From Gemmatimonadota bacterium (GTDB lineage: Bacteria; Latescibacterota; UBA2968; UBA8231): 64,000 bases of DNA. A program made the translations under genes and the position numbers. This document shows, in pieces, positions 14,760 to 35,232 of this stretch. Where the stretch lies: NCBI GenBank assembly GCA_028875345.1, contig JAPPEG010000041.1, forward strand, positions 874 to 64,873, in the 5' to 3' direction. Numbering within the stretch: the stretch's first letter is position 1; every line of letters begins with the position of its first letter. Below the pieces are notes generated by a model that did not search any database, had not been told where the DNA came from, and saw only the letters and a program-made list of their open reading frames with translations.

Positions 14760-15263
14760 TTAAAGCCCTAAAATCTCGCGCGTTCTTCGCGGCAGCGCGC
14801 GCCAATTGGCGATTAGATAGCGGTTGCCATCGACATCCTCAATGACGGCCCGGCTGCCGGAGAGCATGCGCACATTGGTGCGATAGCCGCGGATTTCGAG
14901 TTGACGGGGGCCGCTGGTGGTTTCGATCTGACCGCGCAGCACCCCGAATTCCTCATCGAGGCTATTGAAAGCGAGGACCTGCGGTTGAAAGTATATCTTG
15001 TCGAGTTCGTCTCGTAGTGCTTGGCGGCTTTGGTCGTCGAGCTGCTGCGGGTCTTCGATTATGCCGAGTTCTTGATCTTCAGCGGCAAAGACGCCGATGT
15101 AGCGGTCGGATTCTTCTAGTGGGAAGGCGCGACGGACCTTAAGGTCGGTGTACTCCTCGCCATCGAGCTCGAGGAGCAAACTGCCGCGCTCGGAGCGGCT
15201 GAAGCGCACCTTTTGCGGGTCGAGCAGAACATCCTCGTACGAATAACTGGGTGTCTCGCTCAT
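14760..15263 (-). CDS. DUF1854-like protein coupled to the upstream ABC exporter
   Basis: 167 aa, with a 4-nt overlap with the ABC gene. Sequence pattern (RRAFPL..., ...VIEDVDGNRYLI...) is as remembered for DUF1854, from memory only. Confidence 0.65.
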   Translation of the reverse strand: MSETPSYSYEDVLLDPQKVRFSRSERGSLLLELDGEEYTDLKVRRAFPLEESDRYIGVFAAEDQELGIIEDPQQLDDQSRQALRDELDKIYFQPQVLAFNSLDEEFGVLRGQIETTSGPRQLEIRGYRTNVRMLSGSRAVIEDVDGNRYLIANWRALPRRTREILGL

Positions 15264-23178: not shown

Positions 23179-23799
23179 TCACCATATGAAAGCACTGTAC
23201 AGCAGGGCCATACTCCCCGCGCCCAGCGCACCGCCCGCGCCGATCTGCATGGGGGTATGCGCCCCCAAATAAAGCCGCGCCCAAGCGACGGCCGGCCAAC
23301 TGAGTAAGAAGGGCCACGCCGCGCTACCGACGCTGATCAACAATACGCAGGTTGCCCCTCCGACACCAGCCGCGTGAATGCTGATCTTATAGAAGCGATT
23401 GATCGACCAGACCAAGAGCGTATTGACGACACAGGACGCGGCCGTGACCAGCATTAGGGGAGGGGCTCCGATCCCGTAGAGGGCTGCTCCTCCTAGGGTG
23501 TAGCAACAAGCGCCCAGCAAGAGCAAGGTAGCGCGTTTGTTGCGGTCGTCTGTATAGGCTTTGTCCAGATACCCCGAGCGCACAAAGTGCCAGAGAAGCA
23601 ACCCGGGGACCACAGAGAAGGCACCGACCGCCACTGAGCCGGCGAGCCAGTCGCCTAGCACGTGCGCTTGAACGCCGAAGACCAACAGCGCCAACAGCGC
23701 GGGATTGAGCAAGTGCGAAAGGAAGCATGCGGCTCGGTGCGGATGCAGACTAAAAAAGGGACGAGCTAATTGCTCGCCCCTCGTTATTTCTTTTGCCAT
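23179..23799 (-). CDS. polytopic membrane protein, PAP2-superfamily-like (motifs partly degenerate)
   Basis: 206 aa. KISIHAAG (compare PSGH) and ARLYLGAHTPMQIGAG (compare SRxxxxxHxxxD, with D replaced by Q). Confidence 0.5.
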   Translation of the reverse strand: MAKEITRGEQLARPFFSLHPHRAACFLSHLLNPALLALLVFGVQAHVLGDWLAGSVAVGAFSVVPGLLLWHFVRSGYLDKAYTDDRNKRATLLLLGACCYTLGGAALYGIGAPPLMLVTAASCVVNTLLVWSINRFYKISIHAAGVGGATCVLLISVGSAAWPFLLSWPAVAWARLYLGAHTPMQIGAGGALGAGSMALLYSAFIW

Positions 23800-24215
23800 T
23801 TTTTTCCGCTGGCCGCGCCGCGACTAGGTGGCCTCTTATCACCCTCTAGCACGAAGCCGATAAAGCGCTTTTGTCCAAGGGTCTTCAAATACTGGAGCAG
23901 GGAGACCTCGGCCTCCTTGCGATTGAGCTGGTATTTGTCGCTGAGCTCTTCGATCATATTGCCGACTGAGTTGCGGCCATTGCACATCCGCCAGACCTCG
24001 CTGCCGACCTCGTCGAGGGTGATTTTGCGCTGTTTGGGGATGTAGAAAAACTTGGACAGCAGCCGCACCCTCCAGGTCTCTTGGCGCGTTATGAAGACCT
24101 GGATCTCGCCGTTGTCGTTGTTTTCCCAGCGCAGAGACTCATTGCGCGTTGGCCGCGACGCCAGCATGGCGACCCGGCTTAGCTTGGGTCCCTTGTTTTT
24201 CGATAAAATGCCCAT
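23784..24215 (-). CDS. PqqD-family (RiPP-recognition-element-like) small protein
   Basis: 143 aa. The core LDEVGSEVWRMCNGRNSVGNMIEELSDKYQLNRKEAEVSLLQYLKTLGQKRFI matches the PqqD winged-helix pattern. An AAGG lies 6 nt upstream of the ATG at 24215. An alternative start is at 24167. Confidence 0.65.
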   Translation of the reverse strand: MGILSKNKGPKLSRVAMLASRPTRNESLRWENNDNGEIQVFITRQETWRVRLLSKFFYIPKQRKITLDEVGSEVWRMCNGRNSVGNMIEELSDKYQLNRKEAEVSLLQYLKTLGQKRFIGFVLEGDKRPPSRGAASGKKWQKK

Positions 24216-25131
24216 CTACTACCTTGGCGACTAGCTCGTCTGCTGCGTCTTTCTTGCGGTAGAGGTGCTCGATGATTGCGATTTTGTCGATGCTGGTATC
24301 GCGCCAGACGCGCCCCCGCATATATAGGCGCGGCCTCGGGTTTATAAAGGGCAGAGGACGCAGTAGCTGACGCCAGCGGCTGCGCGGTCGTCCCTCAACG
24401 CGAATGCCCTCGTGTTCCCGCACGGCTTCTGGAGTAATATCCACCACGAAGTCGCGCAATTGCTTCTTAAAAAAAACCGGATACCAGTCTTGGATGGGCG
24501 CGTCTTTGAGCATAATCCGGGCCATGCTCAACCGATGCACCTTTAAAACTTGTTTGCCGAGGGAAAACTCGAGCTCGATGTGGCCCGACTTGAGGGAATG
24601 GCTTTGTAGCTTGAGGTCGCTGGGTGCAAAAAACCGCAAGCCGTACACGCTCCACAGATGCGCGTCCTCAGCTTCTTGATCGACGAGCGAGCTGAACACG
24701 GCCTCGGCTTGCTCGGGCAAAAACTCGTCTAGCTTGGCCAGCACTCGCAGGAGCACTACCCGCCCGGATCCCAAGGCGAGCGCTAGATTGTATGCGCGGA
24801 AGTCGGCCTCCCAGATGAAGACCTCGTATTCGCGGCCTTCGAGGAACTTCTTGTTTTTGAGGAAGCGAGCGCGGCGCTGGACCTCAAAGGGAGCATCGAC
24901 CTTTTGGGCCTTCTTTTGCAGATTGGCCAAGTAGCGATCTACCAACTCGGTCAGGCGCAGGGCCTCGCCGCGGCCTTTGAGCCGCCGCCATTCGATTTCA
25001 GCACGCACGATTTCGGCGTCGTCGAGGCGGGCATAGCCCTTTTCAAAGTCCCCGTCAACTCGGCCGAGGTTCCAATCGTCGGGCACGGACATCCGCAGCC
25101 CTTGCCAAGCGAAGTCCACCCAGTCGCTCAT
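24139..25131 (-). CDS. hypothetical soluble protein, Cys-free, internally duplicated
   Basis: 330 aa, with the start 1 nt after the upstream stop. Two related modules: FAWQGLRMSVPDDWNL... and WSVYGLRFFAPSDLKL... No family recognised. Confidence 0.7.
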   Translation of the reverse strand: MSDWVDFAWQGLRMSVPDDWNLGRVDGDFEKGYARLDDAEIVRAEIEWRRLKGRGEALRLTELVDRYLANLQKKAQKVDAPFEVQRRARFLKNKKFLEGREYEVFIWEADFRAYNLALALGSGRVVLLRVLAKLDEFLPEQAEAVFSSLVDQEAEDAHLWSVYGLRFFAPSDLKLQSHSLKSGHIELEFSLGKQVLKVHRLSMARIMLKDAPIQDWYPVFFKKQLRDFVVDITPEAVREHEGIRVEGRPRSRWRQLLRPLPFINPRPRLYMRGRVWRDTSIDKIAIIEHLYRKKDAADELVAKVVDGHFIEKQGTQAKPGRHAGVAANAQ

Positions 25132-25132
25132 G

Positions 25133-27559
25133 CTAGAAGATCAACACGGAGACCGATTTCTGGATCAGGGCGATCCCCACCGACGCCATACCCATCAACG
25201 CCATACCGCAAGCGAAGCCCACCGCCAGAACCGGGGCAAACAGCCGCCATTCCTGCCGCCCGTACTTGTTCCAAAAGTAGTAGCGAGCCAAGAGCGCACC
25301 GATGATCTCGGTGACGACCAAGTGCGGCAGAATCGTCAGCGAGCGCACGAACCCAAAGATCAACAAGATCGGTAGCCCGAGTATGGATAGCAGAATGAAG
25401 CTCACCAGCCCGAAGCCGGCCCCAAAGGCGATGACTTCTAGTTTCAGCGCCCTAAAGAGCCAAGGCACGTCGGTGGAGCGCTGGATCCAAGAGCTGGTAA
25501 AGAGCGGATCGGTATCGACCTCAAAGTAGAAGGACCATCCGGCCGGTACAGCTCGCTCGGTCTGCACTTCGAGGGTTGGGCGGGGTTCGCGAATGACGGT
25601 GTCCATAGCTGGCCCCAGTGGCGCAATCGCCGGCAGGCCCTCGACCACTTCCTCTTCGGCTAGCTGCTCGTCGCGCAGGTAGCGCTCGGCGACTATGTCG
25701 GGTGCCCCTTGCTCGAAGTACGAGTAGAAAACTTGGGTCGGCATCCACGGGCCGACTTGGCCGCGCTTGCCGTTGGAGTCCAGCCACTCCTGATCCACTA
25801 GCCGCACCCGCCAGTACCACCACTCGTTTTCGATCAGGTTTGCCGGAGTCCATCCCGCTTGATCTTTGTCTATGGCCAGTTCGCTGCGCATGGTGCCGGT
25901 GATAAAGAGACATTGCTGGTAAGCGCGCAGACGCCACATGAGCTGGGCATAGGGGTAAGAGGCCGACGGGATCGGTGCTAGTTTCCAGATATAGGAGCCG
26001 TAGAGAAAACTGGTAAAGAGCACGATGGGTACCATGAAAATCTCGGCGCGGATGATGCTGGTAAACTGGGTGCCGGTCAATTCGATTTCGCGGAACTTCT
26101 GGGTCTGGGCACCGTAGTTGCCCAAGGGAAACGGAATGAACCAGATGTCAACACCGCGATACCCAGAAAGAATAATCGTGGCCTCGCGCACGAAGGGAAC
26201 GTCCACCGTCTGCCCTACCATCCCGACTAGGCGAGCGTTGACGAAGGACTGAAAGGGCGTGAATACGAAACCAAAGAAGAGGAAGAACCATATAAATTGG
26301 GCAATGCCCGGCAGCAGCCAAGCGGCGATGCCGATCAGGCCGGCCGTGGCCAAGGCGTATAGTGCCAACGCCACCCAGATGGGGAAATCGCCGCGGCCAG
26401 CGGGGGTGGCGAAGCCGCGCTTGGGACTGCCATCATTCCCGTTGCCCTTGTTAGCCCTAGCCCTGCGCACGCTCTGAACTATCTGGTAGATGCCGATGGC
26501 GGCGATGGCAAAGGTAGTGCCGAGGCCGAAGCTCATCCAGAAATCGACGTAGTTGACGAAATAGGTCTCGATCGTGCCCATGCCTTGCTGCCACAAGTTC
26601 AGGTACGGCTCCTCGCGCCACGAAGGCGTCCAGGTATAGAGCAGCGGATTGGCAACGGCGGCGGCGACTAGACCGATGAAGGTGCCAACCACGCCCCAGA
26701 ACGGCACCACTAGACCGACGAAGATCGGCCCCAAGTGCGCGGTAAATCCCAGCGGAGTGGCCGGGATAAAGTTGCCGGTAACTTGCGTGAAGTCGACAAA
26801 GGGAATGGGTATGAGTTGGATCGGCTCGGTCAGCAGCGCGCCAGTAATCGCCGGTAGGGCCACGTAGATCGTGCCAAAGACCAAGCCGATCATCGCCCCT
26901 GCCGAGAATACCCGCCAGCGCCACGTCTCAAGTCCTTGGGTAGTTTCGGCCAGTGCCGTAGCACCTTGGGCGTTTACGGGCGCGAAGGGAAAGGGCAGGC
27001 GCTCGTAGTCGGAGCTGAGCCGGAAGAGCGCGTACGACATAGTGAACCAGTTGATGCGCGAGATGATCATCCCCAAGACTAGGAGTACGATCGGCATCGC
27101 CCAATCCGAGTGCAGGAAGGTGCGCTCAATGACGGCGAGAGAGTCGGGTTGGGGTGCCACCCAAGTGGGAATCAGCTTGGTGATGCCGAACTGCTTGGCC
27201 GCTGGCGATTGCACCAAGTACTGGTTGTAGAGCAAGCCCTCAAAGGCACCGGTTTCAGCGGCAATCAGCGAGCCGGCCACGTAGAACAGCACATAGACTT
27301 CTTGGCGCCGGAGGGAGGAGAAGGAACGCTTGGTGATTTCGGCGAAGAGGATGATGGTCACCCACTCGGCCGCCGCCCCCAAAGAGCCGCCGATCATCAG
27401 GCTCAAGTACATGTTGCCCGGCACCATGATGAAGGCGACGAAGAACACGCCGAGGATGGCCTTGATCGTAAAGCCGTTCTCGAAGCGGTCCGGGACCTGC
27501 ATTAAATCCCGATATTCTTCGATCTCTCGGTTCGGGTTTCTGTTTTTGCTTCCGAGCAC
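25133..27559 (-). CDS. large polytopic membrane protein (808 aa), OPT-superfamily-like
   Basis: GTG start preceded by GGGAGG. Many hydrophobic segments. The N-terminus FTIKAILGVFFVAFIMVPGNMYLSLMIGGSLGAAAEW resembles oligopeptide-transporter (OPT) N-termini. A ~170-aa soluble insert lies near the C-terminus. Confidence 0.75.
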   Translation of the reverse strand: MLGSKNRNPNREIEEYRDLMQVPDRFENGFTIKAILGVFFVAFIMVPGNMYLSLMIGGSLGAAAEWVTIILFAEITKRSFSSLRRQEVYVLFYVAGSLIAAETGAFEGLLYNQYLVQSPAAKQFGITKLIPTWVAPQPDSLAVIERTFLHSDWAMPIVLLVLGMIISRINWFTMSYALFRLSSDYERLPFPFAPVNAQGATALAETTQGLETWRWRVFSAGAMIGLVFGTIYVALPAITGALLTEPIQLIPIPFVDFTQVTGNFIPATPLGFTAHLGPIFVGLVVPFWGVVGTFIGLVAAAVANPLLYTWTPSWREEPYLNLWQQGMGTIETYFVNYVDFWMSFGLGTTFAIAAIGIYQIVQSVRRARANKGNGNDGSPKRGFATPAGRGDFPIWVALALYALATAGLIGIAAWLLPGIAQFIWFFLFFGFVFTPFQSFVNARLVGMVGQTVDVPFVREATIILSGYRGVDIWFIPFPLGNYGAQTQKFREIELTGTQFTSIIRAEIFMVPIVLFTSFLYGSYIWKLAPIPSASYPYAQLMWRLRAYQQCLFITGTMRSELAIDKDQAGWTPANLIENEWWYWRVRLVDQEWLDSNGKRGQVGPWMPTQVFYSYFEQGAPDIVAERYLRDEQLAEEEVVEGLPAIAPLGPAMDTVIREPRPTLEVQTERAVPAGWSFYFEVDTDPLFTSSWIQRSTDVPWLFRALKLEVIAFGAGFGLVSFILLSILGLPILLIFGFVRSLTILPHLVVTEIIGALLARYYFWNKYGRQEWRLFAPVLAVGFACGMALMGMASVGIALIQKSVSVLIF

Positions 27560-27572
27560 TCGCTATCCTCCC

Positions 27573-30500
27573 TTACGCCGAAACTTCGCTGCGCAGCCCT
27601 TGCAGAATTTCCGCGCCCTGTTGGCGGTAGCCTTCTTTGGCCTCGGCATCCACCGTGCGCCAGATGAGGAACTGTTTGCGGATGACGTTCATAAAGCGCT
27701 GGTTGACCCTCCGCCACGAGGCGTCCTCGCCGCTGAGTCGCTTGATTTGTAGGCTGACTGCGTAAATGTTGTGCTCGGCCTCTGGCATGGCCCGCACGGT
27801 GACGTGTTGGCTGACGCCCAAGTCGAACGGAGCCAGCCAGATATTCATGTCGATAATGTATCCTTCGCCGTTGGGCGTTTCTTCGCGGCTTAGCTGGGCA
27901 CCGTCGGTGTAGAAGGTGCCGATGGACTCCTCGCTGTAGGAGTCGAAGTAGCCGATGAGGAATACGCTCAAGCCCAAGACCTCGTGACCGCTGACTGTAA
28001 AGGGGAACTCGAAGTCCCACTGGTCGCCGTCGGGCGGCGGCAGCTTCCACTTGCGGGTCACGTCCGGCACGGCCATTTGCGAAGCCTTGCGCGCCGGATA
28101 AATCGTCGAGAGCATGACCACGGCCATCACTAGCATACAGGAGAGCACCGCGGCCACCGAAGAGTAGTTGAGCGTGAAGCCACCCAAAAGGTCAAATTCT
28201 ATGAGTACTTTGGCGATTACTTGGCCGCTGAGATAACCGGCGACTACGCCCAGTACCGAATAGACGCAACTCTCGGCGATAAAGAGCCAAGAGATGTGGC
28301 CGGGGGCTAGGCCCACCGAAGAGTAGATGCCGATTTCGCGGAAGCGCTCGTACACACTACCCATCATGGTGTTGAGCACAATCAGCGAGGCGATCAGCAT
28401 GGGGATGAACAAATTGCTCATCCCGGAAAAGGAGGTCATGCCCAGCGATGAGTAGATCGACACCTTGATGTATTCATCGCCGACCTCCTTGACTCCGGCG
28501 AACAGCGTCACCGCGAGGCGCGAGAGGAACTCCTCGACCTCGCCGCGCACATCGCTGCCCTCGGGGAAGCGCACGGCTACCGACTGTAGTGGGTTGCCGC
28601 TGCCGACGTTGCGCAGCGTGTGGTAGGGAATAATCAGGGTGTTGGCTGGCTCTATGTGGACGAAGGGTTTGATGACGACCTTGGCATCCTCCAGTCCCTG
28701 CTTTTCGCGCTGTTCTTCCTCGGCTATTTCCTGCACCGCCTGACCGCCGGTGACGGCGAAGTCGGCTGGCGTCAGAATCTCATCGTCGAGGTCTTTGAGG
28801 TCCTTCATGCGCTTAGAGTCGATGACGCCCACCACCGTAAACAAGTCGCCGAAGACCCTGACTTGCGCTTGACCAACGTCGGCCAAATCGACATCGAGAT
28901 GGGCTTCCTTGACCATGTCGATGGGCAGGATGCAGGCCTTGTCCTCACCCGGTTCGAACCAGCGTCCGGCGACTAGGGCTTGGTTGAGTCGAGTGACTAG
29001 AGTCTCCTCGGGCGCTAAACCTAGGACGCCGAGCGCGTTATGGGCCTTTTCCCCGTGTTTTATTTTAATGTGCGCTTTGGCCTTGTTGCTGTACCAACTG
29101 CGCGGCGCGACCGCAGCCCGATCGCCGAAATTGCTGCGGGCGTATTCGAGGACTGAATCCTCCATTGGATTCCACGCCTTGCTGCGGATGAGGATGCCCT
29201 CGTAGAGACCCTCGTTGTCGCGGCTGATTTGATTGAACCGCAAGCCCGTGCGGATGGAGGTAAAAGAGAGCACTGTGAACGTCAGCAGCAAGAGCGTGGT
29301 AAAGGTGAGGACCGTGCGCGTCTTGCGCCGTTTCATGTTGGAAATCCCGAGCTGGAAGGCCGTCAGCGAGGCCGAAGAGCGGCTGACATCCGTGTCGTGG
29401 ATCACGGCTACCTCGGTGCGCAGCTTCTTCATCTGCTCGTTAAAGCGGCCGGAGATGATCGACATCACTAGCACTGCCAAGGCGATGATGATAAAGGCCA
29501 GCAGGATGACGAAGGGATTGGATAGCTGAAAGGCCGGATGCACCAGCCACAACACGATCCAGATCGCCAGAAAAACCCCGGCAAAGCCGATTATCTGATT
29601 GCGGATCGTGGCGGCCGTAAAAATGAGCCGCTCAGTGAAAAAGGCGCAGGGGATGACGAGGGCCATGAAGAAGATAATGCCCTGAATGACGTCGTTTTGA
29701 GTGGATTTGACGTCTGGATAGGCGCGCGATTCCAGCCCGAAGGCCGCACGCGTGTGGCGCACGAAATCGCCCCAGCGCTGATCGGTCTCAGCCGCGGCGG
29801 CTTGGGCCAGCTCGGTTTCGGCGCGATAGTGGAGGTCGTTGAGGCGCTGGTTTTCAATGGCAAAGCTCCGCAACTCGCGCATTCGCGACTCGTCGAGATT
29901 CCACATGTCTTGGGCGGCTTGGAAGGTCGTGCGGGCAAAGGAAGTACCGGGGCGAATCTCAAAGCCCTCGCCCTCGGCTTTTTCCTTGTCGGTTACGCTG
30001 GTGGCGTTGAGCAGGAGCGAGCGGAATCCCAGCAGGCCAGCACCGAACCCCATCTTGATGTGCGAACCGGGCCGTGCGAAGAGCACCCCGACCGGCTCGT
30101 TTTGGGCCGAGGGGCCTTCGCCGATGGTATAACCGTACTCCACAGGTGGGCCGTTCGTTTCGTCGAAGACCTGCACGTTGGACAGCTTGGTCAAATAGCG
30201 CGGATCGACGATGTCGAAGAAGTTGTAGGGCACACAGGGAAAGAGGATGACCATCCACTGCTTGTCGCGCCAATCCATGGAGACCCGCATGGGGTAGCTT
30301 TCGTCGCCTTGCACGCCGCGGTCGGGGGCGTAGGTGATGCGGCCGGTGATCGGGTCCATGTAGTAGCCCTCGATCTGCACGTTGTTGACCCGCACCCGAT
30401 TTACGTAAAAGGCCCCCTTATCATCGACGACTTCGTAGTACTCGCCGCGCACGCCTTTATACGACTTTTTCTTACCGTTGCGCACCACGGCTACGGCGTC

Positions 30501-32324
30501 TGCACGCGGCAAGTCGGGGATGATGCTGCGGCGCGGAAAGACCATGGTCCGACCACGCAGCGAGCGCAGCGTGTCGCGCAAGCGCATCTTGAAGTCCGGG
30601 AACAGCTCTGGGTCTTCAAAGGCCATCTCGAACATGCCGGCGAGCACCCGGATCTGTTTGGCGAGATTGGCGTAGTTGACGTGCTCAGCCCGGTCTAAGG
30701 GCGTATCGACGAGGAATCGCGCGTCGTTGACAGTGACAAAGGCCAATGCCGGCGTACCAGTCGCCAATACCAATTCGCTGTTGACCGATATTTCGCCTGG
30801 TACAAAAGTCTGCCAACTCATCCCGCCTTCGGGGCTGATACCATTGACTAGCACGTCGCGCTGCTGATAATCCAACTCGCGGCTGATCTTGCGCGCATAC
30901 CCCATGAAGTTCTTGCCGAAGGGCGCGAAGTAGCGCTTGTAGTAAAAGCTGGTATTGCTATTCCACACTCCGAGTTCGTCGGTTTGCGACGAAAGGTCGA
31001 GGCTGATAAAGAGCTTGACCGCGAGCGAATCGACTTTGGGATCGACCCAAGTTTTGTAGAGCGCGTGGCGCAAGTCGTCGTCCGAGCGCAAGTCGTCAAC
31101 CAGTTCGCGGCGATCTTTGAATTGCTCGTCGGCGAGGTGTAATGCGCCTCCTTCTTGGCTCAGCAGCCCTTCGGCAAGGGCAGCGTCGGCAACGCGCGAG
31201 ACCAAGTCGGTGTGCCCTTCGGCAACGCCCCGCACGAGGGCTTCCTTACTGGTGAACTCCTCCTCGCCGATGGCGTAGTGGATGCCGTCTTGGGCGATCA
31301 TGTTCCGCGCGAGTGCAGCATCGACGACCCGCCTCACCAGCATGTGCTCGATAAAGGGATCCTCTTTGCGCAAATAGCGTTGGATGAAATCATCAATCCC
31401 GCGCAAGCCCAAGTGGTGGGCCGAAGTGGCGAGAAATACGACCGTGCGCGCCGGTGGATTTTCGCGGAAGTAGCGCGCCAGTTCCAACAGCGCAGTAATG
31501 CCGGAGGCTTGCTCGGCACCTGGGGCGAGGGCCGGCACGACTGACATGGCGTCGTAGTACGCTTCCAGCACGATCACGTCCTCTTTTAGCAAGGGATCGT
31601 ATCCGGGGATCGTGCCGAGGATATTCCAGGCGGGACGCCGCTCCCAATCCATGCGGTACTGTAGGTGGAGCGTCTGCTCGCCCTCGGTCGCCAATTGGCG
31701 GCGCAAGCGCTGACCGACTTGGCGATTGACCCAAAACCTCGGCAGGTCGAGCGGCATGGTGAGGAACTTCTTTTCGCCCTCCAAGTACACGGTGGAGTCC
31801 GGCTCGATAAAGATGATAGCTTGCGCCCCGAGGTAGGCGGCATTGAGCCAGGCGTCGCCCGAATTGAAGTCCATCAGGGCCACAGCCCCTTCGACTTGCT
31901 TGCCGTCCATGTCTGCGTACTCACCCGCGCCAGCGTCGATCAAGCGCTTGGTCACCCCGTCTTCGGGCAGCGTCGAGGTTTTGACGAGGTTGGGCCACAG
32001 GCCGTGGATTGGCACTTGCTCGTCGCTGCCAACGACTTGCAGAAATCCGCCCTTATCGACCGGAATAGAGACATCGTATTCGTGTACTGTGACGTCGTCG
32101 AGGCCGATGGCACGGAAGCGCTCCTGCACGATCTGGGCCGCTTGGTCGGCACCTCGATAGCCGGCGACTCTAGACCCCAAGCCGGCAAAGGTGTCCATCG
32201 TTTGCTGCACGCGCTCGACCGGGGCCGTGCGCGCCAACTCGGCAAAATCGACTTCGGTCCAAGCCGGTGCTACGCCGACCAGAATCCAGCCGAAGGCTAT
32301 CCATCGCATCGCGAACTTAGGCAT
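27573..32324 (-). CDS. 1583-aa fusion protein: signal/anchor + PA/M28-like pseudo-peptidase ectodomain + 3 TM + FtsX/MacB-type permease + C-terminal domain
   Basis: ORF 27573..32504 is trimmed to the ATG at 32324 (MPKFAMRWIAFGWILVGVAPAW); the longer form overlaps the upstream gene. M28-like motifs have substituted ligands: EAYYDAMS, PGAEQASGITALLELAR, FLATSAHHLGLRG. FtsX hallmarks are ISNMKRRKTRTVLTF (TM1) and FREIGIYSSVGLAPGHISWLFIAES. Confidence 0.8.
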   Translation of the reverse strand: MPKFAMRWIAFGWILVGVAPAWTEVDFAELARTAPVERVQQTMDTFAGLGSRVAGYRGADQAAQIVQERFRAIGLDDVTVHEYDVSIPVDKGGFLQVVGSDEQVPIHGLWPNLVKTSTLPEDGVTKRLIDAGAGEYADMDGKQVEGAVALMDFNSGDAWLNAAYLGAQAIIFIEPDSTVYLEGEKKFLTMPLDLPRFWVNRQVGQRLRRQLATEGEQTLHLQYRMDWERRPAWNILGTIPGYDPLLKEDVIVLEAYYDAMSVVPALAPGAEQASGITALLELARYFRENPPARTVVFLATSAHHLGLRGIDDFIQRYLRKEDPFIEHMLVRRVVDAALARNMIAQDGIHYAIGEEEFTSKEALVRGVAEGHTDLVSRVADAALAEGLLSQEGGALHLADEQFKDRRELVDDLRSDDDLRHALYKTWVDPKVDSLAVKLFISLDLSSQTDELGVWNSNTSFYYKRYFAPFGKNFMGYARKISRELDYQQRDVLVNGISPEGGMSWQTFVPGEISVNSELVLATGTPALAFVTVNDARFLVDTPLDRAEHVNYANLAKQIRVLAGMFEMAFEDPELFPDFKMRLRDTLRSLRGRTMVFPRRSIIPDLPRADAVAVVRNGKKKSYKGVRGEYYEVVDDKGAFYVNRVRVNNVQIEGYYMDPITGRITYAPDRGVQGDESYPMRVSMDWRDKQWMVILFPCVPYNFFDIVDPRYLTKLSNVQVFDETNGPPVEYGYTIGEGPSAQNEPVGVLFARPGSHIKMGFGAGLLGFRSLLLNATSVTDKEKAEGEGFEIRPGTSFARTTFQAAQDMWNLDESRMRELRSFAIENQRLNDLHYRAETELAQAAAAETDQRWGDFVRHTRAAFGLESRAYPDVKSTQNDVIQGIIFFMALVIPCAFFTERLIFTAATIRNQIIGFAGVFLAIWIVLWLVHPAFQLSNPFVILLAFIIIALAVLVMSIISGRFNEQMKKLRTEVAVIHDTDVSRSSASLTAFQLGISNMKRRKTRTVLTFTTLLLLTFTVLSFTSIRTGLRFNQISRDNEGLYEGILIRSKAWNPMEDSVLEYARSNFGDRAAVAPRSWYSNKAKAHIKIKHGEKAHNALGVLGLAPEETLVTRLNQALVAGRWFEPGEDKACILPIDMVKEAHLDVDLADVGQAQVRVFGDLFTVVGVIDSKRMKDLKDLDDEILTPADFAVTGGQAVQEIAEEEQREKQGLEDAKVVIKPFVHIEPANTLIIPYHTLRNVGSGNPLQSVAVRFPEGSDVRGEVEEFLSRLAVTLFAGVKEVGDEYIKVSIYSSLGMTSFSGMSNLFIPMLIASLIVLNTMMGSVYERFREIGIYSSVGLAPGHISWLFIAESCVYSVLGVVAGYLSGQVIAKVLIEFDLLGGFTLNYSSVAAVLSCMLVMAVVMLSTIYPARKASQMAVPDVTRKWKLPPPDGDQWDFEFPFTVSGHEVLGLSVFLIGYFDSYSEESIGTFYTDGAQLSREETPNGEGYIIDMNIWLAPFDLGVSQHVTVRAMPEAEHNIYAVSLQIKRLSGEDASWRRVNQRFMNVIRKQFLIWRTVDAEAKEGYRQQGAEILQGLRSEVSA

Positions 32325-32338
32325 AGTTAGTGCCTTTC

Positions 32339-34294
32339 TCAGATCCAGAAGACCACATTGTCGGTCATGCCCGTAAAAAAGTCGATAATCAACCAGAGCC
32401 CCGCGATGAAAAACTGGCCTATGATTAAGCCTAAAAAGAAAGGACGCGCCCGGCGAAAAAGACCAGGACCGCCGTATTTCATCGCCAACAACTTTAAGAG
32501 CCAAGCGATGGCAATGCTAAACCATAACTGGTCCATCAGCCATACGGCACCAATCGGGTAGCCGATGGGATGCAGAGGCCACCACAAGAGCCGCTGGCGT
32601 GCCCACATGAGCAGGGCCATGATGCCCCCGCCGACAAAAGTGTGAATCCAGCCATCGATATTCGGCTCGGTGGGTGCGCTTAACTTGGTGGTAATATAAT
32701 CAAAAGGGGCACGAGTTCCACCTCCAAAAAACCACGGGTTGAGGTTGATGCCGCCGTATTCGTAGGCGAGGTACAAAATCGTCGCGACCGAGCCGACGAT
32801 GCTAACAACAATCGCCAGCAGTATGTACCAAAAAAGCGGGCGCAGCCGCGGCCCTAGTCCCTCACCCAACTTGAGACCGTGTGCGCAGGAGGCCATGACA
32901 AAGGTGCGGATATCCGCCGCCCACACGAATGTGTATGCGAGGCCGACTATGCCGGCCGGGCCGATCGCCGAAGAGCCTACGGCCGAAACCAGGACCGTTG
33001 GAGAAATCATCGGCCCGACCGCCGCGGCCACGCCTCCTTCTACTACCACTCGAGTTAGGCCGACGAAGATAAGGATGGCCAGCATCAGGGTCAAAAAGGC
33101 CGCCCACAGCGGCAAGCCAGACTGCCACAGCCAGATGGTCATTACTGCGATGCCGGAGAGCCAAGTTAAGACCGCTACCCGATAGGAGAGCATCTCGCCG
33201 CTGTCGTCGATGCGGTTGTCGCCCCGGAATGCCTTGCGCAGCACGTCGCGCAGGTGCTCGCGGCCGACCCACAGGCCGAAGGCCACTAGGACGATCATCG
33301 CGCCCTGTCCCTGATGGGCGAGGATCGGCTCGCTAGCAGCGCCGTAAACGAGCTTTTCAGTGCTGCCAACCCCTAAAACTCCCAGCCCTCCTCGGATCAA
33401 CTTGGCGATGGTGTTGAAAAACCACAGGCTGAAGGCGATGTCGAGGTTGATCAGATACGCGAACCCGATCATGGGAAAGCTCAGGCGGAAAATCAGGCTG
33501 ACGGTGTTGCGCAGGATCGGAATCGAAGAGACGAGCTGGATGGCGGGGATGAAGTTGAAGTACGCGTGTAGGGCGTTGAAACTACTGACGAGTACGGGCA
33601 GGGCAAAGCCGACCCACATGATTGGATTTTTGAAGAAAGGGCCTAGGGCTTCTCCGCGGCCTCCGCTCTGCACCATGGCCAGGGGCACTTGCACCAGCGG
33701 ATAAACTAGCCGCTCTCGCTCTACCCACTGGCGGCGCATAATGACCATAGACGAGATCATCACCAAGTACAGGGCTACAATCAGAATGGCCCAATAGCAC
33801 AGCGGGCCGCTCCAGGCGGCCCAGGGCACCCCAGTGGTGCGCGGCGCTCCTTCGTAAAACCACTTGATCGCTTCGGGATCCTGCGGGGCGATCCACTCGG
33901 GAAGGTGCGGCAGGATGAGCAAGGCCCACTCGTTTTCCGGGGTGGCGTAGTACTGGGCACCGGTGATGATCGTCAGCCAGTACTCACTGAGGCCCATCGT
34001 GGGGATGGCCGAGGCCGTGAGCATCATAATGTACGCGACGATAAGCTCGCAACGCCCGAGGGCCACAGGAGCGGCGAAGCGCGTCAGCAAGGCATTGAAC
34101 AAGCCCGTTAGCAAGAAGAAGAGAAACAGGGCACCCGCTGCGCTGAAATCAATCGACATGTAGGAGCCGCGGATGACCATGTTGCCGTACGGTGCTCCCA
34201 CGGCGATGCACAGCGACCCTAGGGTGCCCGCCACCAGCGCTTTGGCGCTGAAGACCGGCTTGGTTTGCAAAGTAGGCTTTTGGGGCAAGTCCAT
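32339..34294 (-). CDS. large polytopic membrane protein (651 aa), OPT-superfamily-like; distant paralogue of the 808-aa protein
   Basis: Strongly hydrophobic throughout. N-terminus FSAKALVAGTLGSLCIAVGAPYGNMVIRGS. The C-terminus LLKLLAMKYGGPGLFRRARPFFLGLIIG resembles the C-terminus of the 808-aa protein. Confidence 0.75.
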   Translation of the reverse strand: MDLPQKPTLQTKPVFSAKALVAGTLGSLCIAVGAPYGNMVIRGSYMSIDFSAAGALFLFFLLTGLFNALLTRFAAPVALGRCELIVAYIMMLTASAIPTMGLSEYWLTIITGAQYYATPENEWALLILPHLPEWIAPQDPEAIKWFYEGAPRTTGVPWAAWSGPLCYWAILIVALYLVMISSMVIMRRQWVERERLVYPLVQVPLAMVQSGGRGEALGPFFKNPIMWVGFALPVLVSSFNALHAYFNFIPAIQLVSSIPILRNTVSLIFRLSFPMIGFAYLINLDIAFSLWFFNTIAKLIRGGLGVLGVGSTEKLVYGAASEPILAHQGQGAMIVLVAFGLWVGREHLRDVLRKAFRGDNRIDDSGEMLSYRVAVLTWLSGIAVMTIWLWQSGLPLWAAFLTLMLAILIFVGLTRVVVEGGVAAAVGPMISPTVLVSAVGSSAIGPAGIVGLAYTFVWAADIRTFVMASCAHGLKLGEGLGPRLRPLFWYILLAIVVSIVGSVATILYLAYEYGGINLNPWFFGGGTRAPFDYITTKLSAPTEPNIDGWIHTFVGGGIMALLMWARQRLLWWPLHPIGYPIGAVWLMDQLWFSIAIAWLLKLLAMKYGGPGLFRRARPFFLGLIIGQFFIAGLWLIIDFFTGMTDNVVFWI

Positions 34295-34318: not shown

Positions 34319-34843
34319 TTATAACTGACCTTGGTCCAACCAGCCTATTTTCGCCAATTGTTCCAAGGTCCACCAAGCCAACAGGCCGATCGCCCCTCCG
34401 CTCACCAAAGCGCTGAACAAGGCCAGCGGCAAAAGCGCGAATAGACCGCTGTGGCCGATGTAGCCAGCGGCGAGAACGAGCTGGCTGAGTTGGTGCGTCA
34501 ACGCACCCCAGATGCTCAGACCCACAACGCTGAAAAGTCGCGCTCCCATGCGGCGCACCGCAACCATGACCAACCAACTCGCCAAGCCAGCCCCGCCGCC
34601 AATGACAAAGGCCGGACCGGCAAATCCCCCGCTGAGCAAGCCGCCGACTACCAGCTTGATGGCACTAACGGCCAATGCCGGGCCGCCGCCAAAGCTCACT
34701 AGCGCGACTAAAACCGGTAAATTGCCGAGTCCCAACTTCATCCAAGGCAAGGGTTTGGGTACCAGCGATTCAAAGGTGAAGAGTACAATTGCCGCACTGG
34801 CCATAAGCCCCAAACGGGCCACGTCTCTAGGGCGCGCAAACAT
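34319..34843 (-). CDS. Gx transporter family protein (Hpre_diP_synt_I-like small membrane protein)
   Basis: The start at 34843 (MFARPRDVARLGL...) overlaps the upstream stop by 1 nt. Carries LGLGNLPVLVAL...GGLLSGGF...G motifs typical of the family. Confidence 0.75.
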   Translation of the reverse strand: MFARPRDVARLGLMASAAIVLFTFESLVPKPLPWMKLGLGNLPVLVALVSFGGGPALAVSAIKLVVGGLLSGGFAGPAFVIGGGAGLASWLVMVAVRRMGARLFSVVGLSIWGALTHQLSQLVLAAGYIGHSGLFALLPLALFSALVSGGAIGLLAWWTLEQLAKIGWLDQGQL

Positions 34844-35232
34844 CAGTGAATCATCGCGTCTATGGGCGCGGCCCCAGCGATCCTCAGCACTAGGCCATTG
34901 GGCACGCACGCGGCCACGTCGCCTGCCCGCTGCATCCAGCCCCGCCGCATGCAAATTTTGTGGATGCAGGGTGCGGAAAGCACCCGCACCCCCTTGGGGC
35001 CGATCTCGATCTGGCTCGCGCCCAAAGGTCCTACAACCGGCAAGACTCCGTAGTTGGAGAGGGCATGCATGGCAGGCGTGTCTCCGGCCAACTCGACGAT
35101 GAGTACGCCGCCAGCTTCGGCTGTATAGCGGCCGTAGAGTATCAGCCCGATCGCACTCAAGCCCACGACGAGTGCGAGGATTTTATCTGCTCGCGTCAGC
35201 GCCGGTGCGTTTTCGGTATTTAGCCACCACAT
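34843..35232 (-). CDS. NusG domain II-containing (DUF1312-like) membrane-anchored protein
   Basis: 129 aa with an N-terminal TM helix and a small beta-domain containing PCIHKICMRRGW. It is the usual partner of Gx transporter genes. Confidence 0.7.
   Translation of the reverse strand: MWWLNTENAPALTRADKILALVVGLSAIGLILYGRYTAEAGGVLIVELAGDTPAMHALSNYGVLPVVGPLGASQIEIGPKGVRVLSAPCIHKICMRRGWMQRAGDVAACVPNGLVLRIAGAAPIDAMIH

What the first reader, a model, noticed from the sequence alone, without database searches (positions are those of the whole stretch)
27573..32324. 1583-aa fusion of a ligand-substituted PA/M28 'pseudo-peptidase' ectodomain to an FtsX/MacB-type permease
The N-terminal ~900 aa start with a signal/anchor and contain a PA-domain-like insert (GKQVEGAVALMDF...GAQAIIFIEPD) in an M28 aminopeptidase fold. 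The three M28 motifs I can align by eye all have changed metal or catalytic residues. H-x-D is read as EAYYDAMS (His to Tyr). GAxDNxSG is read as PGAEQASG (bridging Asp to Glu). AEExGLxGS is read as TSAHHLGLRG (Glu-Glu to His-His). Nucleotide positions are about 31380-31560. In characterised M28 enzymes (Vibrio proteolyticus and Streptomyces griseus aminopeptidases) these residues ligate the two zinc ions and supply the general base. The ectodomain is followed by three extra TM helices and then a canonical MacB/FtsX unit: coupling-helix/TM1 ISNMKRRKTRTVLTF at about 29281-29340, a ~300-aa periplasmic domain, FtsX TM2-4 at about 28060-28450, and a ~180-aa cytoplasmic tail. The seven-TM topology is self-consistent, with both large soluble domains periplasmic, which argues against an assembly or frameshift artefact. 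There is a known analogue: E. coli FtsEX controls amidases through EnvC, whose M23/LytM domain is itself catalytically degenerate. Here a degenerate peptidase fold is covalently fused to the FtsX-type module.
Basis: partly seen in the sequence, partly recalled or inferred. Interest (0 to 1): 0.75.

Follow-up and report, generated by a model that had tools for sequence, protein, structure and literature searches.

The report
Dead-peptidase domain fused to FtsX permease
This is a real, widely conserved but unstudied 1583-residue membrane protein of uncultured bacteria in which an aminopeptidase-like outer domain that has lost its zinc site is fused to a MacB/FtsX-type ABC permease, and it almost always sits beside one or two large uncharacterised transporter-like membrane proteins.

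Summary
Window 27573..32324 (-) is one intact ORF of 1583 aa from a Candidatus Latescibacterota genome. It reads: signal peptide, PA/M28 aminopeptidase-fold ectodomain, beta domain and helical stalk, three extra TM helices, a MacB/FtsX unit (TM1, periplasmic core domain, FtsX TM2-4), and a conserved 165-aa cytoplasmic tail.

Alignment confirms His->Tyr256, Asp->Glu271 and Glu-Glu->His303-His304. By motif and strand order, the fourth ligand Asp is kept (D443) and the fifth His is lost (A535).

It is not an artefact. There are more than 1000 clusters at 50% identity, nearly all about 1500 aa, in at least 586 species genomes of several mostly uncultured phyla. None of 101 representatives keeps more than 2 of the 6 canonical site residues. 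D258, H303, D443, D534 and R536 are nevertheless near-invariant, so the pocket looks repurposed rather than decayed.

The FtsEX-EnvC analogy is weak: there is no ftsE, LytM or amidase nearby. The conserved partners are DUF6785/DUF6784 upstream and an 808-aa distant paralogue downstream, with sub-threshold OPT-transporter similarity. A LolD/FtsE-type ATPase, sometimes with a mini-FtsX, is adjacent in 11 of 83 related loci but not here. This clade also adds a 330-aa protein and a PqqD-like peptide chaperone.

Function is inferred only: an ATP-driven type VII ABC module with a ligand-binding pseudo-peptidase that works with OPT-like permeases, probably on peptides.

The parts
27573..32324 (-). 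Whole fusion gene, 1583 aa (signal peptide, PA/M28-like ectodomain, 3 TM, MacB/FtsX unit, cytoplasmic tail)
   Evidence: Full-length homologues at 56-98% identity. At least 586 loci in species genomes.
32259..32324 (-). Residues 1-22: Sec-type signal peptide (MPKFAMRWIAFGWILVGVAPA|WT). Cleavage is inferred.
   Evidence: Sequence. AF2 shows a low-confidence N-terminal helix.
31350..32258 (-). Residues 23-325: first half of the M28 fold with the PA-like insert (about residues 119-215). Carries the substituted motifs AYY256-D258, PGAE271Q and SAH303H304LGLRG.
   Evidence: Pfam M28 at 234-318. Alignments to 6hc6, 2ek8 and 1amp. Column conservation.
31029..31349 (-). Residues 326-432: variable insert splitting the M28 fold, made of two repeats of about 45 aa (beta-beta-beta-alpha-alpha)
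   Evidence: AF2 secondary structure. Low conservation in A1.
30600..31028 (-). Residues 433-575: second half of the M28 fold. SLD443LSS is the retained fourth ligand Asp. TVND534-A535-R536F replaces the SDH motif (fifth ligand His lost). D540-T-P-L-D544 replaces HTxxD.
   Evidence: Motif and strand order. Family profile aligns nicalin across profile positions 251-551. Foldseek alignments of 560-690 columns. The residue-level equivalence is inferred.
29691..30599 (-). Residues 576-878: conserved beta-rich domain (about 587-771) and three-helix stalk (796-878) leading into the membrane
   Evidence: AF2 model. Invariant residues listed.
29454..29690 (-). Residues 879-957: three extra TM helices with family-invariant P892, E898, R899 and H929-P930-A931-F932
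   Evidence: Hydropathy. Conservation.
29253..29453 (-). Residues 958-1024: cytoplasmic linker, amphipathic N-terminal helix (GISNMKRRKTRT) and MacB-type TM1
28431..29252 (-). Residues 1025-1298: MacB-like periplasmic core domain
   Evidence: Pfam MacB_PCD, 29.1 bits against a cut-off of 27
28074..28430 (-). Residues 1299-1417: FtsX domain (TM2-4), including the coupling-helix motif VYERFREIGIYSSVGL
   Evidence: Pfam FtsX E 3e-15. PDB profile hits to MacB, YtrF, LolC and LolF.
27573..28073 (-). Residues 1418-1583: conserved cytoplasmic C-terminal domain of unknown fold, with no Walker motifs
   Evidence: No Pfam hit. Conserved P1441, F1442, D1501, G1503, G1532 and W1537.
32339..34294 (-). Upstream partner gene: DUF6785+DUF6784 polytopic membrane protein (651 aa), 14 bp from the fusion gene
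   Evidence: Pfam E 2.5e-123 and 4.5e-31. Immediately upstream of 39 of 85 fusion genes.
25133..27559 (-). Downstream partner gene: 808-aa polytopic membrane protein ('P808'), a distant paralogue of DUF6785, possibly in the OPT superfamily
   Evidence: Adjacent downstream of 64 of 85 fusion genes. hhalign against DUF6785: probability 89.9%, E 1.7e-6. Sub-threshold Pfam OPT hits in 4 members.
24139..25131 (-). 330-aa soluble protein of unknown function ('P330'), overlapping the P808 stop. Present only in the close clade (21 loci).
   Evidence: No Pfam, NCBIfam or PDB match.
23784..24167 (-). PqqD-family (RRE-type peptide chaperone) gene, 127 aa, last gene of the operon
   Evidence: Pfam PqqD E 9.6e-11. 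NCBIfam lasso/PQQ/GeoRSP PqqD models, all below cut-off. The cluster occurs in 21 loci.
23756..23782 (-). Terminator-like hairpin (11 bp stem, T-run) directly after the PqqD gene

Best explanation
Shown: the gene encodes a type VII (MacB/LolC/FtsX-class) ABC permease subunit that has been extended at its N-terminus. The extension consists of three extra TM helices and a periplasmic ectodomain of about 850 aa derived from a PA-domain M28 aminopeptidase. That ectodomain has lost the co-catalytic zinc site across the whole family, so it is a non-peptidase homologue like transferrin receptor, nicastrin and nicalin. It nevertheless keeps a strongly conserved polar pocket (D258, E271, H303, D443, D534, R536, D544).

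Shown: it is the core of a conserved membrane gene module with one or two DUF6785-superfamily polytopic proteins.

Inferred mechanism:
- The permease dimerises, either with itself or with a 'mini-FtsX' where one is encoded.
- It is driven by a LolD/FtsE/MacB-class ATPase. That ATPase is encoded next to the module in some lineages and elsewhere in this genome.
- ATP-driven movements of the TM and coupling helices are transmitted to the periplasmic core domain and the attached pseudo-peptidase (mechanotransmission).
- The pseudo-peptidase binds, but does not cleave, a peptide-like ligand.
- The ligand is passed to or from the OPT-like partner permeases, or the pseudo-peptidase gates them.

The PqqD-type peptide chaperone in this clade's operon fits a peptide substrate. 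The direction of transport (uptake or export) is not determined.
For: Architecture.

Not an artefact and widely conserved: 472 hits, full-length; 1030 clusters at E<=1e-30, mostly 1450-1700 aa; at least 586 loci in several phyla.

Loss of the canonical site across the family, with conserved replacements: (no representative keeps more than 2 of 6 residues; H303 in 99 of 101).

Conserved synteny with DUF6785 and P808: (78 of 85 fusion genes have at least one partner adjacent, 25 have both).

P808 and DUF6785 are homologous.

OPT-like signal: (25.1, 24.0 and 22.6 bits against a cut-off of 25.8, colinear over about 250 residues).

Type VII energising components in cis in 11 of 83 loci: (best NCBIfam matches LolD, DarD, MacB and FtsE; mini-FtsX matches Pfam FtsX at 1.4e-19).

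Coupling-helix motif ERxREIG is conserved.

PqqD gene in the operon.

Precedent for a type VII ABC system working with a bound periplasmic hydrolase-fold protein: FtsEX-EnvC (PMC7668044) and YbbAP-TesA (PMC12646458).
Against: - No ABC ATPase of the right class lies in the 64-kb window or in most related loci, so ATP coupling at this locus is inferred.
- The OPT relationship is sub-threshold, and the AF2 model of P808 was unusable (pLDDT 50.5).
- No physical interaction, ligand or metal content has been tested.
- Near-invariance of H303, D258 and D443 could mean residual or altered catalysis rather than binding alone.
- PqqD and P330 occur only in the close clade (21 of 83 loci), so they may not belong to the core function.
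Confidence: 0.5

Rival explanations
1. FtsEX-EnvC-like regulator. The FtsX-type module would use ATP hydrolysis to switch the covalently attached dead peptidase domain, which would in turn activate separate cell-wall hydrolases during division or remodelling.
For: An FtsX/MacB unit is joined to a catalytically disabled peptidase fold. FtsEX systems are known to act through degenerate or autoinhibited hydrolase-fold partners (PMC7668044, PMC10694151).
Against: - No ftsE, amidase, LytM/M23, NlpC/P60 or other murein hydrolase gene lies in the operon or recurs in 83 related loci.
- Several paralogues occur per genome, including tandem duplicates, which is unlike a single division machine.
- The periplasmic domain matches MacB_PCD rather than the FtsX models (FtsX NCBIfam scores 9-25 bits against cut-offs of 225-255).
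- The conserved partners are transporter-like membrane proteins.
Confidence: 0.08
2. Still an enzyme. The M28-derived pocket would use a non-canonical site to trim or process peptides that the module transports. That site would be a single metal held by Tyr256/Glu271/Asp443, with His303 as general base.
For: D258, H303, D443, D534 and R536 are 92-99% conserved across 101 representatives at less than 50% identity. The residues at the Zn2 positions (H97, D117, D179 in AAP) are replaced by potential ligands Y, E and D. The AAP E151H variant (2anp) is the best AAP match. From memory, it was reported to retain some activity.
Against: - The Glu152 position is Phe in 52 of 101 representatives.
- The His256 position is unconstrained.
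- Tyr256 is Phe, Asn, Pro or Ser in about 17 representatives.
- Glu271 is Gln, Gly, Ser or Thr in about 12 representatives.
No complete ligand set is therefore conserved.
Confidence: 0.15
3. Dedicated exporter or maturation platform for a ribosomally made peptide (RiPP-like). PqqD would bind the precursor in the cytoplasm, the MacB-type module and OPT-like proteins would export it, and the M28-like domain would hold or chaperone it outside.
For: A PqqD-family gene ends the operon. The associated ATPases score best against LolD, the darobactin exporter DarD, MacB and the bacteriocin-exporter models. MacB-type pumps are known to export peptides (PMC5985334).
Against: No precursor-peptide gene, radical-SAM enzyme, cyclase or other modifying enzyme lies in the operon. 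PqqD and P330 are restricted to 21 of 83 loci, whereas the fusion-plus-DUF6785/P808 core is universal. OPT-family proteins are importers where characterised (general knowledge).
Confidence: 0.12
4. Artefact: two genes (a peptidase and an ABC permease) joined by a sequencing or assembly error.
For: Nothing beyond the unusual length. A few database proteins of about 880-900 aa stop after the third extra TM helix.
Against: The same uninterrupted architecture occurs in hundreds of independent assemblies, including closed chromosomes. The short forms end 13-21 nt from contig ends with divergent terminal residues, or span a whole contig.
Confidence: 0.01

Closest known systems
Type VII ABC transporter permeases (MacB, LolC/LolE/LolF, FtsX, YtrF, YbbP)
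   Same: The FtsX TM2-4 domain, the MacB-type periplasmic core domain between TM1 and TM2, the N-terminal amphipathic helix and the ERxREIG coupling helix are all present. PDB profile hits are MacB 3e-15, YtrF 1e-10, LolC 4.5e-8 and LolF 1.7e-7. LolD/FtsE-class ATPases lie next to related genes.
   Different: - It has seven TM helices rather than four, because three extra helices with invariant E898, R899 and H929 precede the unit.
- It carries an additional ectodomain of about 850 aa and a 165-aa cytoplasmic tail.
- No adjacent ATPase, MacA-type adaptor or TolC is present here.
- It has obligate-looking DUF6785-family neighbours.
PA-domain M28 aminopeptidases (B. subtilis BSAP/YwaD 6hc6, Aneurinibacillus AP 2ek8, P. 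aeruginosa PaAP 8ac7; core enzyme AAP 1amp)
   Same: Same fold and domain order, with the PA domain inserted in M28. Profile E-values are 1.8e-23 and 3e-22, and these are the top Foldseek hits.
   Different: - At most 1 of the 5 metal ligands is kept (D443), and the general base Glu is His.
- The fold is split by an insert of about 107 aa.
- It is followed by extra beta and helical domains and is membrane-anchored at its C-terminus.
M28 non-peptidase homologues in membrane complexes: transferrin receptor 1, nicastrin (gamma-secretase), nicalin
   Same: These are PA/M28-type ectodomains with lost zinc ligands that serve as ligand or substrate receptors attached to a membrane machine. The family profile hits nicalin at 3.6e-9 over both halves of the fold, TfR1 at about 4e-6 and nicastrin at 4e-3. 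TfR1 and GCPII appear among the Foldseek hits.
   Different: Those proteins are eukaryotic single-pass proteins. Here the domain is bacterial, fused in one chain to an ABC-type permease, and closer in sequence to the active bacterial enzymes.
FtsEX-EnvC and YbbAP-TesA (type VII ABC systems that control or carry a periplasmic hydrolase-fold partner)
   Same: The concept is shared: an FtsX-class module is mechanically coupled to a hydrolase-fold domain outside the membrane (PMC7668044, PMC12646458).
   Different: The partner is covalently fused and of the M28 type, not LytM or an SGNH hydrolase. No cell-wall or lipid-hydrolase context is present. The gene neighbours are different.
OPT/YSL oligopeptide and metal-chelate transporters (PF03169), for the partner proteins
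   Same: Four members of the P808 family match the OPT profile colinearly (protein residues about 190-442 to profile positions 133-415) at 22.6-25.1 bits. The N-terminal 'T-x-(R/K)-A...G' and 'ERLPFP..A..A' motifs resemble OPT motifs (this comparison is from memory).
   Different: All scores are below Pfam's cut-off of 25.8. The window's own P808 and DUF6785 proteins do not hit OPT. No structural confirmation was obtained.

Membership tests
Peptidase family M28 (MEROPS M28 / Pfam PF04389), as an active peptidase | M28 alpha/beta fold | tested here: met
   Pfam 38 bits against a cut-off of 21.3. Profile against 2ek8 gives 1.8e-23. Foldseek probability 1.00 to PA-M28 enzymes.
Peptidase family M28 (MEROPS M28 / Pfam PF04389), as an active peptidase | Five co-catalytic zinc ligands (His, Asp, Glu, Asp, His) | tested here: not met
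   The positions read Y256, E271, H304, D443 and A535. The first three come from residue-level alignment. The last two come from motif and strand order. No family member keeps more than 2 of 6 site residues.
Peptidase family M28 (MEROPS M28 / Pfam PF04389), as an active peptidase | General-base Glu preceding the ligand Glu (AAP Glu151) | tested here: not met
   It is His303 here, and His in 99 of 101 representatives.
PA (protease-associated) domain | PA fold inserted in the peptidase domain | tested here: inconclusive
   Residues 119-215 align to the PA regions of YwaD and 2ek8, and the best fold matches are PA-containing M28 proteins. Pfam PF02225 did not hit at E<=1.
Type VII ABC transporter (MacB/FtsX-class) permease | FtsX domain (TM2-TM4) with a cytoplasmic coupling helix | tested here: met
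   Pfam FtsX E 3e-15, covering 5-118 of 120 profile positions. The ERFREIG motif is conserved.
Type VII ABC transporter (MacB/FtsX-class) permease | Large periplasmic core domain between TM1 and TM2 | tested here: met
   MacB_PCD 29.1 bits against a cut-off of 27. Topology.
Type VII ABC transporter (MacB/FtsX-class) permease | Cognate FtsE/LolD/MacB-class ATPase | tested here: inconclusive
   None in the window. Present on the same strand in 11 of 83 related loci, with best matches to LolD, DarD, MacB and FtsE. The rest of this genome could not be searched.
Type VII ABC transporter (MacB/FtsX-class) permease | Four-TM core topology | tested here: not met
   Seven TM helices are predicted. The canonical four are preceded by three extra, highly conserved helices.
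FtsEX-EnvC type cell-division hydrolase regulator | ftsE-ftsX gene pair, FtsX-type periplasmic domain, and a LytM/coiled-coil or hydrolase partner | tested here: not met
   No ftsE, LytM or amidase in the operon or in related loci. FtsX NCBIfam models score far below their cut-offs.
MacAB-TolC type tripartite efflux pump | Fused or adjacent NBD, a MacA-type adaptor and an outer-membrane duct | tested here: not met
   None of these is encoded in the operon. The MacB NCBIfam model scores 38.6 bits against a cut-off of 966.
OPT oligopeptide transporter superfamily (partner proteins P808 and DUF6785) | Significant match to PF03169 or an OPT fold | tested here: inconclusive
   Four of 23 P808-family members score 11-25.1 bits against a cut-off of 25.8, colinearly. 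The window's own protein does not hit. The AF2 model was too poor to use. No PDB sequence hit.

The most novel reading that the evidence does not exclude
A previously unrecognised class of bacterial inner-membrane machine. A MacB-type mechanotransducer would carry a built-in nicastrin/transferrin-receptor-like 'substrate receptor' (a repurposed M28 pocket) and physically load or gate OPT-like secondary permeases. This would be a hybrid in which ATP-driven periplasmic capture is coupled to a separate channel protein. It would be a bacterial counterpart of the M28 pseudo-peptidase receptors so far known only from eukaryotic membrane complexes.
Probability: 0.15. Interest if true: 0.8.

Novelty: new variant of a known kind. 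Interest (0 to 1): 0.55.

Why it matters
Type VII ABC systems (MacB, LolCDE, FtsEX, YbbAP) are a small set of well-studied envelope machines that transmit force rather than carry substrates across the membrane. This family adds a new output device, a covalently attached zinc-less M28/PA domain. It also adds a new set of partners, the DUF6785/DUF6784 proteins and their 800-aa paralogues.

The family is large: more than 1000 clusters at 50% identity and at least 586 species genomes across Latescibacterota, Gemmatimonadota, Armatimonadota, Omnitrophota and others. Yet it is annotated only as 'M28 family peptidase' or 'FtsX-like permease', and I found no literature on it.

Working it out would do three things. 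It would assign a role to two Pfam DUFs. It would correct a systematic 'peptidase' mis-annotation in genomes of uncultured phyla, which matters for metabolic inferences about protein degradation. It would also test whether M28 pseudo-peptidases serve as substrate receptors in bacteria as they do in gamma-secretase and TfR.

Tried and rejected
- Pairwise BLASTP of P808 against DUF6785 found nothing, and a 3-sequence hhalign gave 2.5% probability. Only deeper profiles showed the homology.
- Profile searches of P808 and DUF6785 against PDB sequences found no meaningful hit.
- The AF2 model of P808, built from a shallow alignment at 66% identity or more, failed (pLDDT 50.5). No fold search was therefore run on it, and the OPT question stays open.
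- A spliced M28 construct (insert removed) against the PDB extended the AAP alignment only to residue 176, just short of Asp179. The D443 and A535 equivalences therefore rest on motif and strand order.
- Suspected naturally split forms (ectodomain plus 3 TM only: P0123, P0214, P0250) turned out to be contig-end truncations or artefacts.
- The promoter and terminator scan gave nothing beyond the hairpin after the PqqD gene.
- Literature searches for DUF6785/DUF6784, for FtsX with M28, and for the Pfam identifiers found nothing relevant.
- P330 and the C-terminal tail have no Pfam, NCBIfam or PDB match.
- The ABC protein at 15260..17551 is a type I exporter (ABC_membrane), not a plausible partner ATPase.
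Full report
**1. Is it there?**

Window 27573..32324 (- strand) is a single open reading frame. The mechanical ORF extends back to a TTG at 32504, but the upstream gene stops at 32339. An ATG at 32324 then opens with a typical signal peptide (MPKFAMRWIAFGWILVGVAPA|WT), giving 1583 aa.

Pfam finds three domains:
- Peptidase_M28 at residues 234-318 (38 bits, cut-off 21.3, only the first 79 of 193 profile positions).
- MacB_PCD at 1004-1190 (29.1 bits, cut-off 27).
- FtsX at 1306-1417 (56.8 bits).

Hydropathy places TM helices at 879-899, 911-931, 939-957, 1006-1024, 1299-1317, 1344-1365 and 1390-1408, with K/R-rich loops on the predicted cytoplasmic side.

**2. The M28 site.**

phmmer against PDB sequences aligns residues 18-321 to B. 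subtilis YwaD/BSAP (6hc6), including its PA domain. It aligns residues 264-319 to the Vibrio/Aeromonas aminopeptidase (1amp). The alignments show:
- AYYDA opposite AHYDS (ligand His -> Tyr256).
- PGAEQASG opposite PGANDNGSG / GADDDASG (bridging Asp -> Glu271, with a one-residue gap ambiguity).
- SAHHLGLRG opposite AEELGLLG / AEEVGLRG (general-base Glu -> His303, ligand Glu -> His304).

The M28 fold is interrupted by a poorly conserved insert at residues 326-432, which the AF2 model draws as two repeats of about 45 aa. The fold then resumes.
- A beta strand ending in SLD443LSS corresponds by motif and strand order to the 'xLDM' strand that carries the fourth ligand Asp. That ligand is retained.
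- TVND534-A535-R536-F corresponds to 'SDHxxF', so the fifth ligand His is lost.
- D540-TPL-D544 corresponds to 'HTxxD'.

These last equivalences are inferred. A spliced construct extended the AAP alignment only to residue 176, and I had no access to model coordinates.

The AF2 model of residues 1-880 is usable (pLDDT 79.5, pTM 0.80). Its best Foldseek matches are PA+M28 aminopeptidases (2ek8, 6hc6/6hc7, PaAP 8ac7, 3iib), followed by transferrin receptor 1 and GCPII, all at probability 1.00. A family profile also hits nicalin (3.6e-9, across both halves of the fold), TfR1 and weakly nicastrin. These are the known M28 pseudo-peptidases of membrane complexes.

**3. Not decay but replacement.**

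Among 116 close full-length homologues the site signature Y-E-H-H-D-A is almost invariant. Among 101 representatives at less than 50% mutual identity:
- Position 256 is Tyr in 74, Phe in 8 and His in 7.
- Position 271 is Glu in 73 and Asp in 14.
- Position 303 is His in 99.
- Position 304 is Phe in 52, with Gly, His, Tyr or Cys in the rest.
- Position 443 is Asp in 93.
- Position 535 is unconstrained.
- No sequence keeps more than 2 of the 6 canonical residues.

The canonical two-zinc site was therefore lost at the root of the family. D258, H303, D443, D534, R536 and D544 are nevertheless 81-99% conserved. 'Repurposed pocket' is a better description than 'degenerate'. A non-canonical catalytic site cannot be excluded, but no complete ligand set is conserved.

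**4. Real and widespread.**

The word-indexed search returned 472 relatives. The top 120 are nearly all full-length at 56-98% identity and carry the same three Pfam domains. They are named only 'M28 family peptidase' or 'FtsX-like permease family protein'.

The exhaustive search with the ectodomain found 1030 clusters at 50% identity with E<=1e-30, typically 1450-1700 aa long.

The window is 99% identical to a closed Candidatus Latescibacterota chromosome (OZ220721.1). Other carriers are Gemmatimonadota, Armatimonadota, Omnitrophota, Nitrospirota, Ratteibacteria, Handelsmanbacteria and Zipacnadia MAGs. Several genomes hold more than one copy.

A few database entries of about 880-900 aa that stop after the third extra TM helix are contig-end truncations or artefacts. 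An assembly or frameshift artefact is excluded.

**5. Context.**

In the window the genes are packed on the - strand in this order:
- A PF07456 membrane protein (34319..34954).
- DUF6785+DUF6784 (32339..34294), 14 bp upstream of the fusion gene.
- The fusion gene.
- An 808-aa polytopic protein ('P808', 25133..27559), 13 bp downstream.
- A 330-aa soluble protein ('P330', 24139..25131), overlapping P808.
- A 127-aa PqqD-family protein (23784..24167), overlapping P330.
- A strong hairpin with a T-run (23782-23756).

Counts over the 85 fusion genes in the 83 related loci:

| Neighbours of the fusion gene | Fusion genes |
|---|---|
| DUF6785 immediately upstream and P808-family gene immediately downstream | 25 |
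| P808 downstream only | 25 |
| P808 downstream, upstream flank missing | 14 |
| DUF6785 upstream only | 13 (+1 with the downstream flank missing) |
| Neither adjacent | 5 |
| Flanks too short to judge | 2 |

One Latescibacterota genome carries two tandem DUF6785+fusion pairs.

With 22-23-sequence profiles, P808 and DUF6785 are homologous (hhalign probability 89.9%, E 1.7e-6, 354 columns). Four P808-family members match Pfam OPT colinearly, just under the curated cut-off (25.1, 24.0, 22.6 and 11.3 bits against 25.8). That suggests a distant OPT-superfamily relationship but does not prove it. The AF2 model of P808 was too poor to test this.

All-against-all clustering of flanking ORFs found no other family that recurs across the diverse loci.

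**6. Energy source.**

The window holds no FtsE/LolD/MacB-class ATPase. The only ABC protein (15260..17551) is a type I exporter half-transporter.

In 11 of 83 related loci a 243-300-aa ATPase lies on the same strand next to the module. Its best NCBIfam matches are LolD, DarD, MacB, YbbA and FtsE. In eight of those loci it is paired with a 214-273-aa 'mini-FtsX', which has four TM helices and almost no periplasmic loop (Pfam FtsX 1.4e-19).

The ERxREIG coupling helix is also conserved in the fusion protein. Together these points support an ATP-driven type VII ABC mechanism, with the ATPase encoded elsewhere in this genome. That last point is inference.

**7. Most likely mechanism.**

Shown:
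- The domain anatomy.
- Loss of the canonical metal site.
- The conserved pocket.
- The conserved module with DUF6785-superfamily proteins.
- Occasional linkage in cis to LolD-class ATPases.

Inferred:
- The protein dimerises as MacB, LolCE and FtsX do.
- ATP binding and hydrolysis move the TM and coupling helices. That motion is passed to the periplasmic core domain and the stalk-mounted pseudo-peptidase (mechanotransmission, as reviewed in PMC5985334).
- The M28/PA pocket binds a peptide-like ligand without cleaving it, as TfR, nicastrin and nicalin use the same fold as receptors.
- The ligand is handed to or from the OPT-like partner permeases, or the domain gates them.

The PqqD-type peptide chaperone in this clade fits a peptide substrate. 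Whether the system imports or exports is open.

I put about 0.9 on the anatomical statements and about 0.3 on the functional model. The reported figure of 0.5 covers the statement as a whole.

**8. Rivals.**
- FtsEX-EnvC-like control of cell-wall hydrolases: no supporting genes, multiple paralogues per genome, and a MacB-type rather than FtsX-type periplasmic domain.
- A non-canonical active peptidase: favoured by the invariant H303, D258 and D443. Disfavoured by Phe at the Glu152 position and a free His256 position.
- A RiPP-type export platform: PqqD is present, but there is no precursor or modifying enzyme, and PqqD and P330 are confined to 21 loci.
- Artefact: refuted.

**9. Comparison with the known, and novelty.**

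By membership, the protein is a homologue of M28 that fails the catalytic definition. It is a member of the type VII ABC permease superfamily with a non-canonical 3+4 TM layout and no demonstrated ATPase at this locus. It is not an FtsEX-EnvC or MacAB-TolC system.

I found no paper on DUF6785, DUF6784 or this fusion. I rate it a new variant of a known kind: known parts in a new, conserved and uncharacterised combination with new partners.

I score interest at 0.55. A type VII ABC or pseudo-enzyme specialist would want to follow it up. The 'M28 peptidase' annotation is misleading for metabolic reconstructions of these phyla. The function, however, remains inferred.

Noticed in passing
window 23784..24167 (-) and 23756..23782 (-): A 127-aa PqqD-family (RRE-type peptide chaperone) gene overlaps the end of the 330-aa gene and is followed by a strong terminator-like hairpin. 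This probably marks the end of the operon. The same PqqD cluster occurs in 21 related loci.
   Followed up: partly
window 23179..23799 (-): The mechanical ORF (weak PAP2 hit, E 8e-4, below cut-off) would start inside the terminator hairpin, so its true start is probably further downstream.
   Followed up: no
window 25133..27559 (-) and 32339..34294 (-): The two large membrane proteins flanking the fusion gene are distant paralogues (hhalign probability 89.9%). The 808-aa family has no Pfam model and shows sub-threshold OPT-transporter similarity. It also carries a beta-rich insert of about 130 aa (residues about 560-690).
   Followed up: partly
L043:16774-18165, L045:5142-6905, L050, L052, L055, L061, L066, L072: Related loci encode a 'mini-FtsX' (214-273 aa, four TM helices, almost no periplasmic loop) next to a LolD/FtsE-class ATPase beside the fusion gene. 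This suggests a heteromeric permease (large plus mini subunit) in those lineages.
   Followed up: partly
L001:1241-14545: Two tandem DUF6785+fusion gene pairs lie in one 8-Mb Latescibacterota chromosome. Other genomes also carry several paralogues (for example L006 and L068, L038 and L053).
   Followed up: no
window 31029..31349 (-) (residues 326-432): The insert that splits the M28 fold consists of two tandem units of about 45 aa (three short strands plus two helices). It is the least conserved part of the ectodomain.
   Followed up: no
window 29454..29690 (-) (residues 879-957): The three extra TM helices carry family-invariant polar residues (E898-R899 at the cytoplasmic end of the first helix, H929-P930-A931-F932 at the periplasmic end of the second). 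Their role is unexplained. They could form an interaction surface or a proton-coupling site.
   Followed up: no
window 15260..17551 (-): A 763-aa type I ABC exporter half-transporter (ABC_membrane + ABC_tran) has an N-terminal extension with weak bacterial-PH and zinc-ribbon hits. It is unrelated to the FtsX-type system.
   Followed up: no
window 34319..34954 (-); L002:8956-9866: A PF07456 ('heptaprenyl diphosphate synthase component I') membrane protein lies upstream of the module in the close clade (19 loci). In L002 it is preceded by a NusG_II-domain gene. It is unclear whether it belongs to the module or is merely syntenic.
   Followed up: no
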